Shown: positions 10,646 to 50,810, counted from the stretch's first letter. The stretch: DNA of 64,000 nucleotides from a virus (IMGVR_UViG_3300005289_000003:22445-86444); one strand, 5' to 3'. The notes: a model not told the origin generated them from the sequence alone. Translations and numbers: made by a program.

Positions 10646-10718
10646 GGTGTCTGTGGCAGAGTGGCTATGCACTGGATTGTGGGTCCAGACCACGTGGGTT
10701 CAAATCCCACCAGACACA
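10646..10718 (+). tRNA. tRNA-His(GTG)
   Basis: G-1 encoded; acceptor GTGTCTG/CAGACAC; anticodon arm CTGGA-TT-GTG-GG-TCCAG. Confidence 0.9.
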
Positions 10719-10719
10719 C

Positions 10720-10863
10720 GAGGTACCGAAGCGAAGAAGACGGATACTTCAATGGATAAACCGTAGGTCGTTGGTTCAAATCCAACCCTCCCAACCATTG
10801 GGAGGTAGCTCAGTGGTTAGAGCAACGGTGAAAAGACTGTCTTCGATTATTTCTCGGTACCTC
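10720..10863 (+). ncRNA. Y RNA unit 1, YrlA-type (circularly permuted tRNA module)
   Basis: Terminal stem GAGGTACCGA/TCGGTACCTC, GAAGCG motif; T arm, acceptor closed by ACCAT loop, then D arm; upstream of Ro60. Confidence 0.85.
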
Positions 10864-10869
10864 CCAGTT

Positions 10870-11009
10870 TGGCACTGAAGCGGAAGGTAAGGGTTACTCC
10901 TAATATGAATAGGGTAGACCAGGTTCGAATCCTGGCCGCTCCACAATAAGGGGCGGTAGTGTAATGGCAGCACACTAAAAATACCCAAACCTAATATTTC
11001 TCAGTGCCA
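10870..11009 (+). ncRNA. Y RNA unit 2, YrlA-type (circularly permuted tRNA module)
   Basis: TGGCACTGA/TCAGTGCCA; CCAGG-TTCGAAT-CCTGG, CCGCTCC/GGGGCGG, GTGT-AATGGCA-GCAC. Confidence 0.85.
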
Positions 11010-11017
11010 CCCAGTTT

Positions 11018-11140
11018 GACCCGAAGCGTAGTAACTGGTTACTTCTCTCCGCCAGGGCCTAGCCCGGAGGGCACCTACTTCCAAGCTTTTAAACTTGGTT
11101 TCGTAGGAACCTGTGTGCCAATTACGATATTTCTCGGGTC
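11018..11140 (+). ncRNA. Y-RNA-like unit 3
   Basis: GACCCGA/TCGGGTC; GAAGCG...TACTTC...TATTTCTC scaffold; two cargo hairpins. Confidence 0.75.
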
Positions 11141-11148
11141 GCCTAGAC

Positions 11149-11314
11149 GGCTTCAGAAGCGAAGAGAGAAGATACTTCTACAGAGAAAGAAAGTCCGTCC
11201 GACCAACGGCGCGCTACCTACTCCACACGTCATTGAGTAGGAGCAAGGGTGTAATTACCAGATGTTGTGATTTGTTAATACCACCCGTCTTTTCTCAAGT
11301 ATTACTCTGAAGTC
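11149..11314 (+). ncRNA. Y-RNA-like unit 4
   Basis: GGCTTCAGA/TCTGAAGTC; same scaffold; three cargo hairpins. Confidence 0.75.
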
Positions 11315-11321
11315 TCCTTGT

Positions 11322-11414
11322 TGGGTCAGAAGCGGACGGATAGGTTACTTCACAAACACCACTATTAATGGTGTCTCTAAGAGACAAACTTATTCGAATT
11401 ATTTCTCTGACCCA
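11322..11414 (+). ncRNA. Y-RNA-like unit 5
   Basis: TGGGTCAGA/TCTGACCCA; same scaffold; short cargo. Confidence 0.75.
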
Positions 11415-11418
11415 CCCT

Positions 11419-11505
11419 AAAGCAAGAGGCACCGAAGCGGAGAATACGGTTACTTCTTTCGGCTGATAGATCCGTATTCGTTTATTACTCGGTGCTCCTT
11501 GCTTT
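11419..11505 (+). ncRNA. Y-RNA-like unit 6 (minimal)
   Basis: Extended terminal stem ending GCACCGA/TCGGTGC; GAATACGG/CCGTATTC; same scaffold. Confidence 0.75.
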
Positions 11506-11532
11506 TATTACTCTCCCGAAAGGAGAAGCGGC
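11506..11532 (+). promoter_or_regulatory. putative translational operator: permuted Y-RNA scaffold covering the Ro60 SD
   Basis: TATTAC-TCTCC-cgaaa-GGAGA-AGCGG-c-ATG. Confidence 0.55.
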
Positions 11533-13140
11533 ATGGGAAAGCTAGGTAAGCAAAGCGCAAAGCTTCAGGTGGAAAGTGCGAACAAGAAGGCTGGACTGAT
11601 TCGCACCAGCGGGGGAAAGACCACCACTCATGAAGGTGGAACCGGGCACCTACGCGATACCAAGTCGGAACTATTCCTTCTTGGTGTTACCAACATGGTG
11701 TCTGAGCAAACCTTCTATGAGCGCGGTTCGGATCGTGACAAGCGCTTTATGGGTCTGCTCATCACGGTGACCCATCAGGATGCCGATTGGGTATCTCGGT
11801 TCCTACCGTGGCTACGCGGACCAGGCAACATGAGAACCGCTTCTATCGTCGGTGCGGCTGTCTATGCCCGCACCGTCCTGTCCATGGCTCCTGAGGCACG
11901 TGAGGCTCTTTACAGGGCTTTCCCTGGGGCCACGGTCCGGAAGGTTGTGGCGTCCGTCCTACAGCGTCCCGACGAACCAGCAGAGTTCATCTCCTACTGG
12001 CTTCAGGGAAGTGACACCAAGACGCTTCCTGGTGGCGTGCAGCGTGGTCTAGCCGACGCGGTAAAGCGTCTGTACACGGAACGGAACTCCCTGAAGTACG
12101 ACGGACAGAACCAGCCATGGCGTATGTCTGACGTGATTCAGTTGGTTCACCCGGACCCTGATACTGAGGTTCAGTCTCTTCTTTTCGATTACCTTGCCAA
12201 GAAGCGCTTCAGCGGAAGCGAAGCGGTAATCCCAGACGAACTCTTGATGCTTCAGGCAAACAGGAAGCTCTACGAAATCCCTCAGGAGCTACGTCGGGAG
12301 CGTCTGGCAGCAGACCCGAAGTCAATGGCTACCATTCTCCGGAGTGGTGGCATGACCTGGGAATCACTAGCAACGTGGCTAGGTGGTCCTCTGGGTAAGG
12401 AAGGTTGGGAGGCAATTGCTCCTAGCCTGGGAATCTTCGCTCTGGTCCGGAACCTTCGGAACATCAGTGAAGCTGGAGTGAGCAACGAGGTTCAGGAAGC
12501 CCTAGCGGCAAAGATTTCTGACCCTCAGGTAATTGCCAACTCTCGTATGTTCCCTCTTCGCTTCTACACGGCGTATCGGGAAGCCACGAACGTCATATGG
12601 AGCTACCCCCTTGAGAAGGCCCTGATGGCTTCTCTGGGGAACATTCCGAAGTTGGACGGCCGAACGCTGGTACTGATCGACCAATCAGGTTCGATGAATT
12701 TTTCTATGTCGAACAAGTCCACCGTGCGACTCTCGGAACAGGCTGCCTTGTTCGGTATCGCTCTGGGCATGGCTGCCGACAATGCGGATGTCTACGTCTA
12801 CGGGAATTCTCACAAGGAAATCCCGCTACCCAAGGGTGGTTCAATCCTGCCGCTTGTCGCTAAGTACGGTCAGGCTGATATGGGTGGAACCCAGACATGG
12901 ACCACTGCCAGATCCCTTTACCGGGGTCATGACAGAATCGTTATCGTGACGGATGAGCAGAGCCACGATAGCGCGTACGGAATTCCGGATATCCCCATCG
13001 TGACCTTCAACGTTGAGGGCTACAAGGCTGCCCACACGGAATCCTCAAAGAAGAGAATCACCGTGGGTGGTCTGTCGGATGGTGGGTTCAGCCTGATTCA
13101 GGCCATGGACTCCGCCGGTAAGGGTGAGTGGCCTTTCTGA
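11533..13140 (+). CDS. rsr: Ro60/TROVE-domain RNA-binding protein with C-terminal vWA domain
   Basis: THEGGTG...KSELFLL...FYE N-terminus, MTWE, ALVRNLRN, RMFPLRFYTAY, MIDAS DQSGSM, VIVTDEQ. Confidence 0.93.
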   Translation: MGKLGKQSAKLQVESANKKAGLIRTSGGKTTTHEGGTGHLRDTKSELFLLGVTNMVSEQTFYERGSDRDKRFMGLLITVTHQDADWVSRFLPWLRGPGNMRTASIVGAAVYARTVLSMAPEAREALYRAFPGATVRKVVASVLQRPDEPAEFISYWLQGSDTKTLPGGVQRGLADAVKRLYTERNSLKYDGQNQPWRMSDVIQLVHPDPDTEVQSLLFDYLAKKRFSGSEAVIPDELLMLQANRKLYEIPQELRRERLAADPKSMATILRSGGMTWESLATWLGGPLGKEGWEAIAPSLGIFALVRNLRNISEAGVSNEVQEALAAKISDPQVIANSRMFPLRFYTAYREATNVIWSYPLEKALMASLGNIPKLDGRTLVLIDQSGSMNFSMSNKSTVRLSEQAALFGIALGMAADNADVYVYGNSHKEIPLPKGGSILPLVAKYGQADMGGTQTWTTARSLYRGHDRIVIVTDEQSHDSAYGIPDIPIVTFNVEGYKAAHTESSKKRITVGGLSDGGFSLIQAMDSAGKGEWPF

Positions 13141-13432: not shown

Positions 13433-13506
13433 GGATCGCTAGCTCAATTGGTCAGAGCAATGCGCTCTTAACGCATAGGTTCAGGGTTCGAGTCCCTGGC
13501 GATCCA
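13433..13506 (+). tRNA. tRNA-Lys(CTT)
   Basis: Anticodon arm ATGCG-CT-CTT-AA-CGCAT. Confidence 0.94.
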
Positions 13507-13534
13507 CTTAATAGTCCTGTGGTAGAGTGCAGTT

Positions 13535-13957
13535 ATGCCTATTTGCCATGTCTGCTCAAAAGAAGTCGATAGATACGCCAACAACAAGCGTTGCCGAGAA
13601 TGCTATAACGAATATATGCGCGAATATATGAAAAAGCGCTTTCACCAAAAGCGTGCAGAAATGATAGCCATTCTTGGTGGCGTTTGTGTTCATTGTGGAA
13701 CTACAGAAAAGCTGGAATTCGACCACATATTTGAGAATACCAAATCATGGGATATAGGTAAGATTTGGGGACACCGTAAAGTAATAGCTGAATTGAAGAA
13801 GATTCAGTTGCTATGCAATAGCTGCCACAAAAAGAAGTCAGCTAGATATATGAGTGTTGACCATGGTGGCGGTCTATCTGGTAAAGATGGTTGCAAATGT
13901 ACAAAGTGCAAAGCACGCAAAGCAGAATATATGAAGAAATACAATAAGCCCCGTTAG
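13535..13957 (+). CDS. HNH endonuclease (probable free-standing homing endonuclease)
   Basis: CVHCG...LEFDHI...QLLCNSCHKKKS; AT-rich; between two tRNA-Lys genes. Confidence 0.88.
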   Translation: MPICHVCSKEVDRYANNKRCRECYNEYMREYMKKRFHQKRAEMIAILGGVCVHCGTTEKLEFDHIFENTKSWDIGKIWGHRKVIAELKKIQLLCNSCHKKKSARYMSVDHGGGLSGKDGCKCTKCKARKAEYMKKYNKPR

Positions 13958-14021
13958 CCCAACCTGGTAGGGCAATCGGCTTTTAACCGATAGATTGTAG
14001 GTTCAAATCCTACACGGGGCA
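13948..14021 (+). tRNA. tRNA-Lys(TTT)
   Basis: Anticodon arm ATCGG-CT-TTT-AA-CCGAT. Confidence 0.93.
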
Positions 14022-14022
14022 C

Positions 14023-14256
14023 ATGGACATTTACGACGTATTCAGGTCAGTAGCGGATGCCATTCCCAATGGAGGTAATTCACGAAAGAGAATGAGGAGA
14101 CGTGTCAAGGCTTACCGTATGGCTGACAGCATCATGGACCCGAAGTCATTCCTTCGTTCTCAGACCTACTGTCGGATGGGTAAGCACCAGCCTGTAGGCA
14201 AAATGTATTGCATCATCTGCGAGCATTGCCGCAAAGTCCTAGGAAACAACTATTAG
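14023..14256 (+). CDS. hypothetical protein with C-terminal Cys/His motif
   Basis: CRMGKH...CEHC; ATG immediately after tRNA-Lys. Confidence 0.6.
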   Translation: MDIYDVFRSVADAIPNGGNSRKRMRRRVKAYRMADSIMDPKSFLRSQTYCRMGKHQPVGKMYCIICEHCRKVLGNNY

Positions 14257-14328
14257 GGGCCTTAGCTCAGTTGGTAGAGCACTTGCCTTGCAAGCAAGGG
14301 GTGGGGGGTTCGATTCCCCTAGGCTCCA
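14256..14328 (+). tRNA. tRNA-Ala(TGC)
   Basis: GGGGCCT/AGGCTCC with G3:U70; anticodon loop CT-TGC-AA. Confidence 0.94.
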
Positions 14329-14329
14329 C

Positions 14330-49043: not shown

Positions 49044-50810
49044 TTAATTCTGGATTAGTTCCATATGGCTATGAATTTCTGGCGTAGTGGACATAGCAAC
49101 TCTGTCCATTAGATAGAAGTAAGGACCACCAAAGGTGATACCGAAGTTTCCAAAGGCAACACCACCAGAACCGGTGTTTATGTTCGCTGCCGTTACATGC
49201 TCGGTAAGAACCGTCGTCTTTGGAGAGTTAAAGATGTAAGCATCTAGTTGCCCGTCTGAAGCGCCAATGGTGAGGGTTATTCCAATACGTATCCACTTGT
49301 CTGTAGGTAGTACAGACGAAGAGGTTGCTTGAACCGTAAAGTTTTTGTCGGACAGAGTTAGATGCCCGTCAGCATCCATGCCGACATAACCACAAGCATT
49401 GAAAACATTTGTCTCAGAGAATGCGGCAAAGAGCCCACGACCATCTACGTAATAGCTAGGTAGCCGCACATACATTCTGGCGTAGAGAATATCCAGTGGC
49501 GTTAGCACAAGAGGCCCGGTTAGGACCTTATAAGCAACCTGAGCAAAACCATCGCTAGCAAAAGAGTTCACCGCGATACATGGTGTGTAATCCAGACCAG
49601 CACCGCTATAAACCAAAACACCATTACTGGTGAAAACATTGAAGAATTCATCACCAGAGAAGTTTGTATTGCTGGTGGTGACGTCATCTCCAATAGGCGC
49701 ATACAGCAAAGTATTTGCCTTGTACATGTTCCCCGAATCGATAGGAGTCGGGGGAATAGGTGTTGTCGTTCCTGTTGGCCCTGTCGGTCCGGTTGGTCCT
49801 GAAGGCCCCGTAGGACCCGTGGGGCCTGTCGGTCCAGTTGGCCCCGTGATGGGGCCTGTAGGCCCTGTAGAGCCTGTGGGACCGCTACCGGGTGGTGGTG
49901 TGACCTGAGACCACAGTTCGATGTATTTGGCCGTAGAAACCGGGCTGTTTCCATTGAATAGATCTGAGTTCACATTGCTAGCGTCAATGGGGTCAGCGAA
50001 GTATTGCTCAAACCCCATGTGCCCCGTGGAGTTCGCGTCTAGAAAGACGTTGAACATTCCTTGGATGTAAGCGGCACCGTGGACATCTCCACCAGCCTGA
50101 GCAAATCCGGTGGCAATACCCCACTCAGGAACAATCAAGCGCTTGCCATGTTGGCGGGCCAAATCAAGGAACCAACGAATACAGTCAGGTCTAACCGCTT
50201 CAGATTCAAAATCTGGGTTAGAGAAATACATATCGTAATAGTCAACGCCGATGTAATCCACCACGTCATCACCTGGGTAAATCTCGGTGGAGACGCTGAT
50301 CAGTGGATAACTGGCGTGACCGTTCATTGTCCAGGCAGTTGCCGCACCCGGATAAGTAGTCCTGATGTTCTGGACAATACGACGGTATCCATTGATGTAT
50401 TCCTGTGCTGAGTGGTATTGGCCTTGGCCTCCTCCACCACCCCATGGCATGAAGTCACCATTGGCTTCCCAAGCAATGGAGAAGACAGGCTTAGCAAATC
50501 CTTGCGCTTCTCTTGCAGCCCAGTTAGAACCAAATTGTTGCCATTCCGCATCGTAAGCACCATTAGCCAGAGCTACATAAGTACCACCGATATTTTCAGG
50601 GTATGGCGGTAGTTGAACAATGAGGGGCATTGACTTGTCAGACCAGGCACCCGGTTGACCGGAAGTGGTGCTCCAAAGGTTTCCCCAACCAGCGTCACGA
50701 GTTGGGTAAGTAAGAGCACACGTGCAGGCAGAACCGCGTGACGCTCCCCATTGCTCACTAGCACCCTGAAAGTTTGTGTCTCTACTTCCACCAGAGCGCC
50801 AGGAAGGCAT
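49044..50810 (-). CDS. tail-associated GH26 glycoside hydrolase with collagen linker and beta-sandwich domain
   Basis: [33 protein letters not shown]; GPT repeats. Confidence 0.85.

What the first reader, a model, noticed from the sequence alone, without database searches (positions are those of the whole stretch)
11506..11535. Permuted copy of the Y-RNA scaffold covers the Ro60 Shine-Dalgarno: candidate autogenous operator
Seen: just before the Ro60 ATG lies TATTAC-TCTCC-cgaaa-GGAGA-AGCGG-c-ATG. TATTAC-TC is the 3'-strand motif and GA-AGCGG the 5'-strand motif of the six units, here in reverse order and joined by a hairpin whose 3' arm is the SD (AGGAG). The local TC/GA junction is therefore the same as in the Y units. 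Inference: free Ro60 binds its own leader and blocks translation, so Ro60 is matched to Y-RNA supply, as with ribosomal-protein operators. I am not aware of this being reported for Ro60. The stem is only 5 bp.
Basis: inference. Interest (0 to 1): 0.82.

Follow-up and report, generated by a model that had tools for sequence, protein, structure and literature searches.

The report
Swapped-strand Y-RNA mimic on Ro60 start
The ribosome-binding site of this soil phage's Ro60 gene sits in a tiny hairpin flanked, in swapped order, by the two conserved boxes of the phage's six neighbouring Y RNAs, so spare Ro60 may shut off its own synthesis. This is untested, and only one other distant phage was found to share it.

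Summary
TATTAC-TCTCC-cgaaa-GGAGA-AGCGG-c-ATG lies at 11506-11535, directly before a 535-aa TROVE (Ro60) ORF and 10 nt after the last of six tandem Y-RNA units.

- **Match to the units.** The leader carries all 13 invariant bases of two of the units' three boxes (GAAGCG and TATTWCTC) in reverse order. A 5-bp stem joins them, and its 3' arm is the Shine-Dalgarno (SD).
- **Not chance.** No control window reached its score.
- **Not general.** A scan of 138 related Ro60 loci, each scored against its own Y units, found the layout in one other phage only (L050). That Ro60 lies in a different clade. Its leader follows its own 3' box (TGATCTC type), its stem differs by compensatory changes, and the SD comes just after the mimic.
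- **What relatives have instead.** Frankia and Streptomyces phages BRock and LuckySocke have terminator-like or SD-hiding hairpins without the boxes. SD sequestration itself is family-wide.

Best reading (about 0.45): a low-affinity Ro60 operator that blocks translation. Main rival: a decayed array junction on a generic SD hairpin. No binding or regulation has been tested. This scan noted similar mimics before on other DNA, and I found no paper reporting it.

The parts
10720..11496 (+). Array of six tandem Y-RNA units (u1 10720-10863, u2 10870-11009, u3 11017-11141, u4 11149-11314, u5 11322-11414, u6 11428-11496). These are the presumed primary Ro60 ligands.
   Evidence: covarying 8-10 bp terminal stems and the boxes GAAGCG, TACTYC and TATTWCTC; weak YrlA (RF02553) matches in u1 and u2.
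11497..11505 (+). 9-nt spacer between the unit 6 stem and the leader element.
   Evidence: The equivalent spacer in L050 is 10 nt.
11506..11513 (+). Copy of the 3'-strand box TATTACTC, identical to units 4 and 6.
11512..11526 (+). 5-bp hairpin TCTCC / cgaaa / GGAGA. Its outer two pairs are the TC/GA junction of the Y units.
   Evidence: -5 to -6 kcal/mol. Probability that the SD is paired is 0.98.
11518..11526 (+). Shine-Dalgarno region (GAAAGGAGA): loop plus 3' arm, with GGAG 7 nt before the ATG.
   Evidence: The match to the actinobacterial 16S 3' end is from my own knowledge.
11525..11531 (+). Copy of the 5'-strand box GAAGCGG, identical to units 2, 5 and 6.
11533..13140 (+). Ro60 (TROVE/vWA) gene, 535 aa.

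Best explanation
The leader element is a low-affinity, circularly permuted copy of the Ro60 docking module of the phage's own Y RNAs.

**How the mimic is built.** In a Y unit the terminal stem ends in G-A / T-C and opens into a loop with AGCG on one strand and TATTWC on the other. In the leader the same two strands flank the same GA/TC pairs. Here the helix is closed by a loop on the side where a Y RNA has its free ends.

**Proposed mechanism (inferred).** The array and Ro60 are made as one transcript. Ro60 first fills the six full Y sites. Surplus Ro60 then binds the leader copy, holds the 5-bp stem shut and covers the SD and the AUG 1 nt downstream, so 30S subunits cannot load. This matches Ro60 output to Y-RNA supply.

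**What is shown and what is not.** Shown: the sequence identity, the placement on the SD, and a second lineage with the same layout. Inferred: Ro60 binding, the direction of the effect (repression), and co-transcription.
For: 1. The leader holds all 13 invariant bases of the two docking boxes in the correct junction register, and the base next to the junction pairs (T-A) as in every unit.
2. It scores 11/11 on a measure derived only from the units, and 0 of 932 control windows reach that score.
3. L050 has the same order: 3' box, then a 5-bp stem TCGGT/GCCGA with a GCAA loop, then CGAAGCG, 12 nt before its GTG start. The SD follows immediately. It scores 10/11, and 0 of 1381 control windows reach that score.
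4. L050's 3' box is its own lineage's type (TAATCTC against units' TGATCTC), not the window's. The inner stem pairs differ in a compensatory way. The spacing from the last unit is 9 against 10 nt.
5. The two Ro60 proteins lie in different well-supported clades whose other members lack the element. So the element was either gained twice or kept over a long divergence.
6. No promoter-like or terminator-like site separates the array from the gene.
7. The hairpin alone is weak (-5 kcal/mol), so a protein would be needed for strong repression.
8. SD sequestration is a family-wide trait of Ro60 leaders. Median probability that the SD is paired is 0.94 in 173 leaders against 0.55 in 400 control genes. 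This shows that Ro60 translation is generally held in check.
Against: - Only 2 of 138 loci with recognisable units show the element, and there is no general enrichment (10 of 138 at p<0.05, about 7 expected).
- It is absent from the closest reachable relatives: Frankia and Pseudofrankia at 50-51% identity, and L002 at 49%. It is also absent from the syntenic Streptomyces phages BRock and LuckySocke.
- The element lacks the third conserved box TACTYC and the inner helix, which may be needed for Ro60 binding.
- CTCC/GGAG is what any anti-SD hairpin would contain, so only about 10 flanking bases are specifically Y-like.
- Streptomyces phage Quantum has a similar SD context (GGAGAAGCAGCA) although its Y units use a different 5' box.
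- The stem is only 5 bp and is not more stable than shuffled sequence.
- In L050 an alternative pairing, TCTCG/CGAGA, competes with the mimic stem.
- There are no binding, expression or transcript-end data.
Confidence: 0.45

Rival explanations
1. Decayed array junction on a generic SD hairpin. The tandem array grows and shrinks by unequal exchange. The leader is what remains of the 3' end of one lost unit and the 5' end of another, shortened until the anti-SD/SD hairpin common to Ro60 leaders was left. Ro60 does not bind it to any useful effect.
For: - Formally the element is a sixth 3'-box-to-5'-box junction like the five between units, with the shortest gap.
- TTTATTACTC is a 10-nt direct repeat of the end of unit 6, 23 nt upstream.
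- Most relatives have SD-hiding hairpins with no Y boxes.
- The stem core CTCC/GGAG is explained by the SD alone.
- A GGAGAAGC-type SD context occurs in Quantum without any Y relation.
Against: - It needs two separate truncations that leave self-complementary stubs.
- The same architecture, with the same spacing (9 against 10 nt after the last unit, 5-bp stem, 4-5 nt loop), occurs in a second lineage from another Ro60 clade.
- There the boxes match that lineage's own units, while the spacer, loop and inner stem have all changed. That is the pattern expected of selection on the boxes, not of neutral decay.
Confidence: 0.3
2. Ro60 does bind the element, but for another purpose. It might mark the boundary where the last Y RNA is cut from the mRNA, protect or expose the mRNA 5' end to PNPase-type decay, or open the stem and activate translation.
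For: - The array and gene have no promoter or terminator between them, so the mRNA 5' end must be made by processing near 11497 (inference).
- Published work says that Ro60 with Y RNA recruits PNPase, and that Xenopus Ro60 pries the Y helix apart (PMC12135203).
- In the window the SD is inside the stem, but in L050 it is outside. The common denominator is closeness to the start site, not SD pairing.
Against: Nothing in the sequence points to a cleavage site. A bulky ring protein within 1-12 nt of the SD or start would most simply block 30S binding in both lineages.
Confidence: 0.15
3. Pure coincidence: two short motifs that are common in this genome happen to flank an SD hairpin.
For: - GAAGCG is over-represented in the window: 70 copies against 27 expected.
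- One exact box pair within 20 nt occurs by chance inside a coding region at 50196-50228 on the minus strand.
- A very loose pattern gives 184 hits in 5 Mb of loci.
Against: The leader has both boxes exact, in junction register with a pairing stem, at the one place next to the array. None of 932 control windows reaches its score, and L050 repeats the layout.
Confidence: 0.04
4. Transcription attenuator or terminator of the Y array, as in many relatives where a GC-rich hairpin and a T run precede the Ro60 start.
For: Relatives such as L005, L291, BRock, VanLee and Quantum have terminator-like hairpins at this position.
Against: In the window the stem is 5 bp with 3 G-C pairs and is followed by AGCGGCATG, with no T run. 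The terminator scan finds nothing here.
Confidence: 0.03

Closest known systems
Autogenous translational operators that mimic the protein's main RNA ligand (E. coli thrS operator mimicking the tRNA-Thr anticodon arm; ribosomal-protein operators such as S8/spc, L1, L20, S15; MS2 coat protein hairpin on the replicase start). Recalled from my own knowledge.
   Same: A copy of the recognition determinants of the primary RNA target is placed on or next to the SD and start of the protein's own mRNA. The copy is a stripped-down version, which would be expected to bind more weakly than the true target.
   Different: The protein is Ro60, for which I found no report of such control. The mimic is circularly permuted: the helix is capped where the Y RNA has its ends and open where the Y RNA continues. 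Binding and repression are not shown.
Y RNAs / YrlA (Rfam RF02553), including phage Y-RNA-like RNAs upstream of Ro60 (PMC4201824; Thermus phage phiLo Yrl1 and Yrl2, PMC12135203).
   Same: It shares the two boxes that flank the top of the terminal stem, and it lies in the same transcript region upstream of Ro60.
   Different: It is not a Y RNA. The strand order is swapped, the stem is 5 bp against 8-10, and there is no TACTYC box, no inner helix and no cargo or tRNA-like domain. It gives no Rfam match.
SD-sequestering or terminator-like hairpins found before most Ro60 genes of this actinobacterial and actinophage subfamily
   Same: The SD is the 3' arm of a hairpin directly before the start codon.
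   Different: Those hairpins are longer, GC-rich, often followed by a T run, and lack the two Y boxes. The window's stem is minimal and carries the boxes on both sides.

Membership tests
Autogenous translational operator by target mimicry | The element shares the recognition determinants of the protein's primary RNA ligand. | tested here: met
   At sequence level only. All 13 invariant bases of the GAAGCG and TATTWCTC boxes and the GA/TC junction are present. Which bases Ro60 actually contacts is not known for this phage.
Autogenous translational operator by target mimicry | The element overlaps or abuts the ribosome-binding site. | tested here: met
   GGAG at 11522-11525 is the 3' arm, and the ATG is 1 nt after the 5' box. 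In L050 the SD starts 1 nt after the mimic.
Autogenous translational operator by target mimicry | The protein binds the element. | not testable with these tools
   Needs EMSA, filter binding or CLIP.
Autogenous translational operator by target mimicry | Binding lowers translation of the protein's own mRNA. | not testable with these tools
   Needs reporter fusions or toeprinting.
Autogenous translational operator by target mimicry | The element is conserved or co-varies with the ligand among relatives. | tested here: inconclusive
   It is present and tracks the lineage's own box in L050, but is absent from 136 of 138 scanned loci. The closest relatives (P0002, P0003) could not be fetched.
Y RNA (YrlA-type) | A terminal stem formed by the 5' and 3' ends of the RNA. 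| tested here: not met
   The strands are in reverse order and joined by a 5-nt loop.
Y RNA (YrlA-type) | A third box (TACTYC), an inner helix and a large loop or tRNA-like domain. | tested here: not met
   The ORF starts 1 nt after the 5' box. No Rfam match in the leader.
Intrinsic terminator / attenuator | A GC-rich stem followed by a T run. | tested here: not met
   One search finds none at 11500-11540. The stem is followed by AGCGGCATG.
Family-wide SD-sequestering leader hairpin of Ro60 genes | The SD is paired in a hairpin directly before the start. | tested here: met
   Probability that the SD is paired is 0.98, rank 5 of 42 genes in the window. The family median is 0.94 against 0.55 in controls.

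The most novel reading that the evidence does not exclude
Ro60 measures its own free pool through a circularly permuted copy of the Y-RNA docking site on its ribosome-binding site. This device arose, or was kept, independently in two distant phage Ro60 clades. It would be the first known feedback loop coupling Ro60 dosage to Y-RNA supply, and a natural minimal Ro60-binding RNA of about 26 nt.
Probability: 0.4. Interest if true: 0.75.

Novelty: new member of a known kind. Interest (0 to 1): 0.6.

Why it matters
How cells and phages keep Ro60 and its Y RNAs in balance is not known. Y RNAs need Ro60 for stability and in turn gate Ro60's RNA-binding surfaces.

A leader mimic would give a simple, testable feedback loop. 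It would also define the smallest RNA that Ro60 recognises (helix top plus two loop strands, without cargo). This would help structural work and the design of Ro60 decoys. The family-wide hiding of the SD suggests that Ro60 translation is restrained in general, by different means in different lineages.

Tried and rejected
**Sequences I could not obtain or that gave nothing**
- The one metagenome scan, run with P0003, did not return them. Viral scans with the window protein and with P0003 did not either.
- No near match in the phage database.
It added only L189 and L260, and L189, the one whose leader I read, has no mimic.
- The tRNA-like module pattern found only L050's contig and an unrelated jumbo-phage tRNA cluster.

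**Ideas tested and dropped**
- The Ro60 mRNA enclosed in a giant Y stem: there is no 3' box after the stop codon.
- GAAGC or G[GA][TA]GCG enrichment in 173 leaders: none. 8 leaders carry GAAGC (about 8 expected, my rough estimate), and 10 observed against 20 expected.
- Shared 7-mers between leader and array were too noisy in GC-rich DNA.
- The flanking genes of window and L050 are unrelated apart from Ro60.

**Sequencing runs**
- No RNA holder is listed.
- Contigs from wastewater 'RNA-Seq' runs match parts of the array exactly. One 157-nt contig bridges unit 6, the leader and the ORF start, but these runs may be DNA and show no variation.

**Other**
- The first Python scan timed out.

Full report
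**What is there.** The window is part of a complete 86,444-bp uncultured phage genome with terminal repeats. It comes from a soil metagenome.

Between tRNA-His (10647-10719) and a 535-aa ORF (11533-13140) lie six tandem structured units. The ORF is a TROVE-domain protein. It has thousands of actinobacterial Ro60 homologues, and its nearest solved structure is the Ro60 of Thermus phage phiLo.

A script located the units at 10720-10863, 10870-11009, 11017-11141, 11149-11314, 11322-11414 and 11428-11496. Each is closed by an 8-10 bp terminal stem whose sequence differs between units but always pairs. Each stem ends in G-A on the 5' strand and T-C on the 3' strand. Each unit has three invariant boxes:
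- GAAGCG, whose first two bases are the stem top;
- TACTYC, about 10 nt further on;
- TATTWCTC, whose last two bases are the stem top.

Units 1 and 2 give weak YrlA matches. This is the layout described for bacterial and phage Y RNAs encoded upstream of Ro60 (PMC4201824; PMC12135203).

**The observation.**
- TATTACTC equals the 3' box of units 4 and 6.
- GAAGCGG equals the 5' box of units 2, 5 and 6.
- The T after CTC pairs with the A before GAAGCG. In every unit the base after CTC pairs likewise with the base before GAAGCG.

The leader therefore holds all 13 invariant bases of two of the three boxes, in reverse order, around the same TC/GA junction. It lacks the TACTYC box and the inner helix, because the ORF begins 1 nt after the 5' box.

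The 5-bp hairpin is predicted at -5 to -6 kcal/mol. It dominates the ensemble: the probability that the SD is paired is 0.98. Being so short, it is no more stable than shuffled sequence (z -0.7). GAAAGGAG (loop plus 3' arm) is a long match to the actinobacterial 16S 3' end; that match is from my own knowledge. The hairpin alone therefore looks like a weak barrier to the ribosome.

**Is it more than chance?** In the whole genome the pair TATTWCTC-N4-30-GAAGCG occurs seven times:
- five junctions between units, with gaps of 19-26 nt;
- the leader, with a gap of 11 nt;
- one hit inside a 588-aa ORF on the other strand (50196-50228). It has no pairing stem and I take it as chance.

A first-order random model expects 0.05 such pairs.

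I also built a score from the units alone. It counts matches to a unit's 3' loop and 5' loop around a TC...G[GA] stem of at least 4 bp with a 3-9 nt loop. The leader scores 11 of 11, and none of 932 control windows of the same locus reaches that.

Part of the match (CTCC/GGAG) would occur in any anti-SD hairpin. About ten flanking bases are specifically Y-like.

I collected Ro60 loci from viral contigs, metagenomes, genomes and named phages. After defining starts by the conserved N-terminus, this gave 173 distinct leaders.

By eye and by script, most leaders have the following order: the last Y unit, about 10 nt, then a GC-rich hairpin whose 3' arm is the SD. This hairpin is often followed by a T run and then the start codon. 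BRock, LuckySocke, VanLee and Quantum have a terminator-like hairpin and then an SD. BRock and LuckySocke share the window's gene order of Ro60 followed by tRNA-Lys, tRNA-Lys and tRNA-Ala. They nevertheless have no mimic. Frankia and Pseudofrankia (50-51% identity, with the same MGKL-type N-terminus and CGAAGTG-type units) have an anti-SD hairpin without the boxes.

**One clear second case.** L050 (a 60.9-kb viral contig, Ro60 40% identical) has five units with 5' box GAAGCG and 3' box TGATCTC. Ten nt after the last unit it has, in order: TAATCTC; the stem TCGGT/GCCGA with loop GCAA; GAAGCGA; the SD GAGGAG; and a GTG start at 2962.
- The stem is predicted at -5.4 kcal/mol. A competing pairing TCTCG/CGAGA exists.
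- Scored against each locus's own units, only the window (11/11) and L050 (10/11) have a separate swapped-strand element in the leader. None of 1381 control windows reaches L050's score.
- The other low p-values reuse the last unit's own 3' strand.
- Across 138 loci there is no general enrichment: 10 at p<0.05.

The two leaders share the architecture and the spacing, but not the spacer, the loop, the inner stem pairs or the 3' box itself. Each 3' box follows its own lineage's units.

**Placement of the two cases.** A quick maximum-likelihood tree (SH-aLRT support only, careful search not finished) gives two separate placements:
- the window groups with P0002 and P0003, then P0005, P0004 plus Frankia, and L002;
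- L050 is sister to L035, L038 and L075, inside another clade with support of 99 or more.

Those neighbours lack the element. The flanking genes of window and L050 are unrelated. The element was therefore either gained twice, kept over a deep divergence with many losses, or moved together with an array. The first two options argue for selection. None of the three is easily produced by neutral decay, which would need two truncations leaving complementary stubs, twice.

**Family-wide context.** The SD core is predicted paired with a median probability of 0.94 in the 173 Ro60 leaders (67% above 0.8). In 400 other genes of the same loci the median is 0.55 (20% above 0.8). Within the window the Ro60 leader ranks 5th of 42 genes. 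The leaders are not independent samples. Even so, restraint of Ro60 translation by structure seems to be the rule, and the window's stem is the local, minimal form of it.

**Mechanism.** No promoter-like or terminator-like site lies between the array and the gene. I therefore infer one transcript from which the Y RNAs are cut. The most economical reading is an autogenous operator:
1. Ro60 fills the six complete sites.
2. Surplus protein binds the stripped-down copy.
3. Binding clamps the stem and covers the SD and AUG.

In L050 the SD lies just outside the mimic. What the two cases share is a bulky protein next to the start site, which favours steric repression. Activation by helix opening, or a role in processing or decay, cannot be excluded. 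Published work says Xenopus Ro60 separates the Y helix and that Ro60 with Y RNA recruits PNPase.

**Comparison with what is known.** The logic is that of thrS, ribosomal-protein and MS2-type operators. It would be new for Ro60. Searches of the paper library for Ro60 or Rsr with autoregulation, autogenous control or own mRNA found nothing relevant.

The element is not a Y RNA, because its defining features are not met. It is not a terminator either.

Earlier notes of this scan report swapped-strand or cargo-less Y mimics at Ro60 start sites on at least eight other genomes. Several of them say the layout is widespread. In the subfamily tested here that is not so for a copy of both boxes (2 of 138). 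It holds only for SD-hiding hairpins.

**Verdict.** It is unproven and is not a general feature of related Ro60 genes.

My confidence figures:

| Reading | Confidence |
|---|---|
| Ro60-responsive translational operator | about 0.45 |
| Ro60 binds, but for another purpose | about 0.15 |
| Non-functional junction relic on a generic SD hairpin | about 0.30 |

Noticed in passing
L002-L090, L291-L302, L303-L382 (leaders just before each Ro60 start): Across 173 distinct Ro60 leaders of this actinobacterial and actinophage subfamily, the SD is predicted paired with median probability 0.94, against 0.55 in 400 control genes. Many leaders are GC-rich hairpins with the SD in the 3' arm, followed by a T run and then the start codon. 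They look like terminators of the Y array that also hide the ribosome-binding site.
   Followed up: partly
L028, L031/L032, L066, L070, L078 (about -25 to -15 before the start): In these leaders the Y 5'-strand string (C)CC-GGTGCG sits in the loop and 5' arm of the SD hairpin. It resembles the 5' half of a Y unit whose stem is CCTCCCGG. L031 also has a second GATCTC copy after its last unit. This may be a different kind of partial Y mimic.
   Followed up: partly
window 50196-50228, minus strand: An exact TATTTCTC-N19-GAAGCG pair lies inside a 588-aa ORF (49044-50810, minus strand). It has no pairing stem and I take it as chance. It shows that the two boxes alone are not unique to the array.
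   Followed up: yes
window 13433-14329; L285 (BRock) and L287 (LuckySocke): Ro60 is followed by tRNA-Lys(ctt), tRNA-Lys(ttt) and tRNA-Ala(tgc). Streptomyces phages BRock and LuckySocke have the same trio after their Ro60 and a 4-5 unit Y array before it. Their boxes are different (GATGCG and TTTTTCTAG).
   Followed up: partly
L383:2340-2720 (IMG/VR contig of 527 kb): A jumbo-phage tRNA cluster holds several T-arm / acceptor / D-arm pieces in permuted order. One of them shares 22 nt with Y unit 2 of the window and unit 3 of L050. No Ro60 gene is in the locus.
   Followed up: no
L305-L382 (Streptomyces chromosomal Ro60 leaders): The SD GGGGG(A) lies between two GAATTC half-sites that can pair with each other. 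It is preceded by a conserved CCTCCCTCCGAAAC(G)GAA block. In L331 this block reads TCCG-AAA-CGGA-AGCG, which superficially resembles the window's element.
   Followed up: partly
window 11447-11591, 11103-11317, 10814-10964: Short contigs from wastewater metagenomic 'RNA-Seq' runs of 2024-2025 match these stretches with 0-1 differences. One contig bridges unit 6, the leader and the Ro60 start. A near-identical phage therefore occurs outside the source soil sample. Whether the reads are RNA is unknown.
   Followed up: partly
window units and L050 units: The spacing GAAGCG-N10-TTACTTC is fixed in units 3, 5 and 6 of the window and in three L050 units. Other lineages have G[GA][TA]GCG-N-AG in the same place, so GAAGCG and GGTGCG appear to be positional equivalents of one 5' box.
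   Followed up: partly
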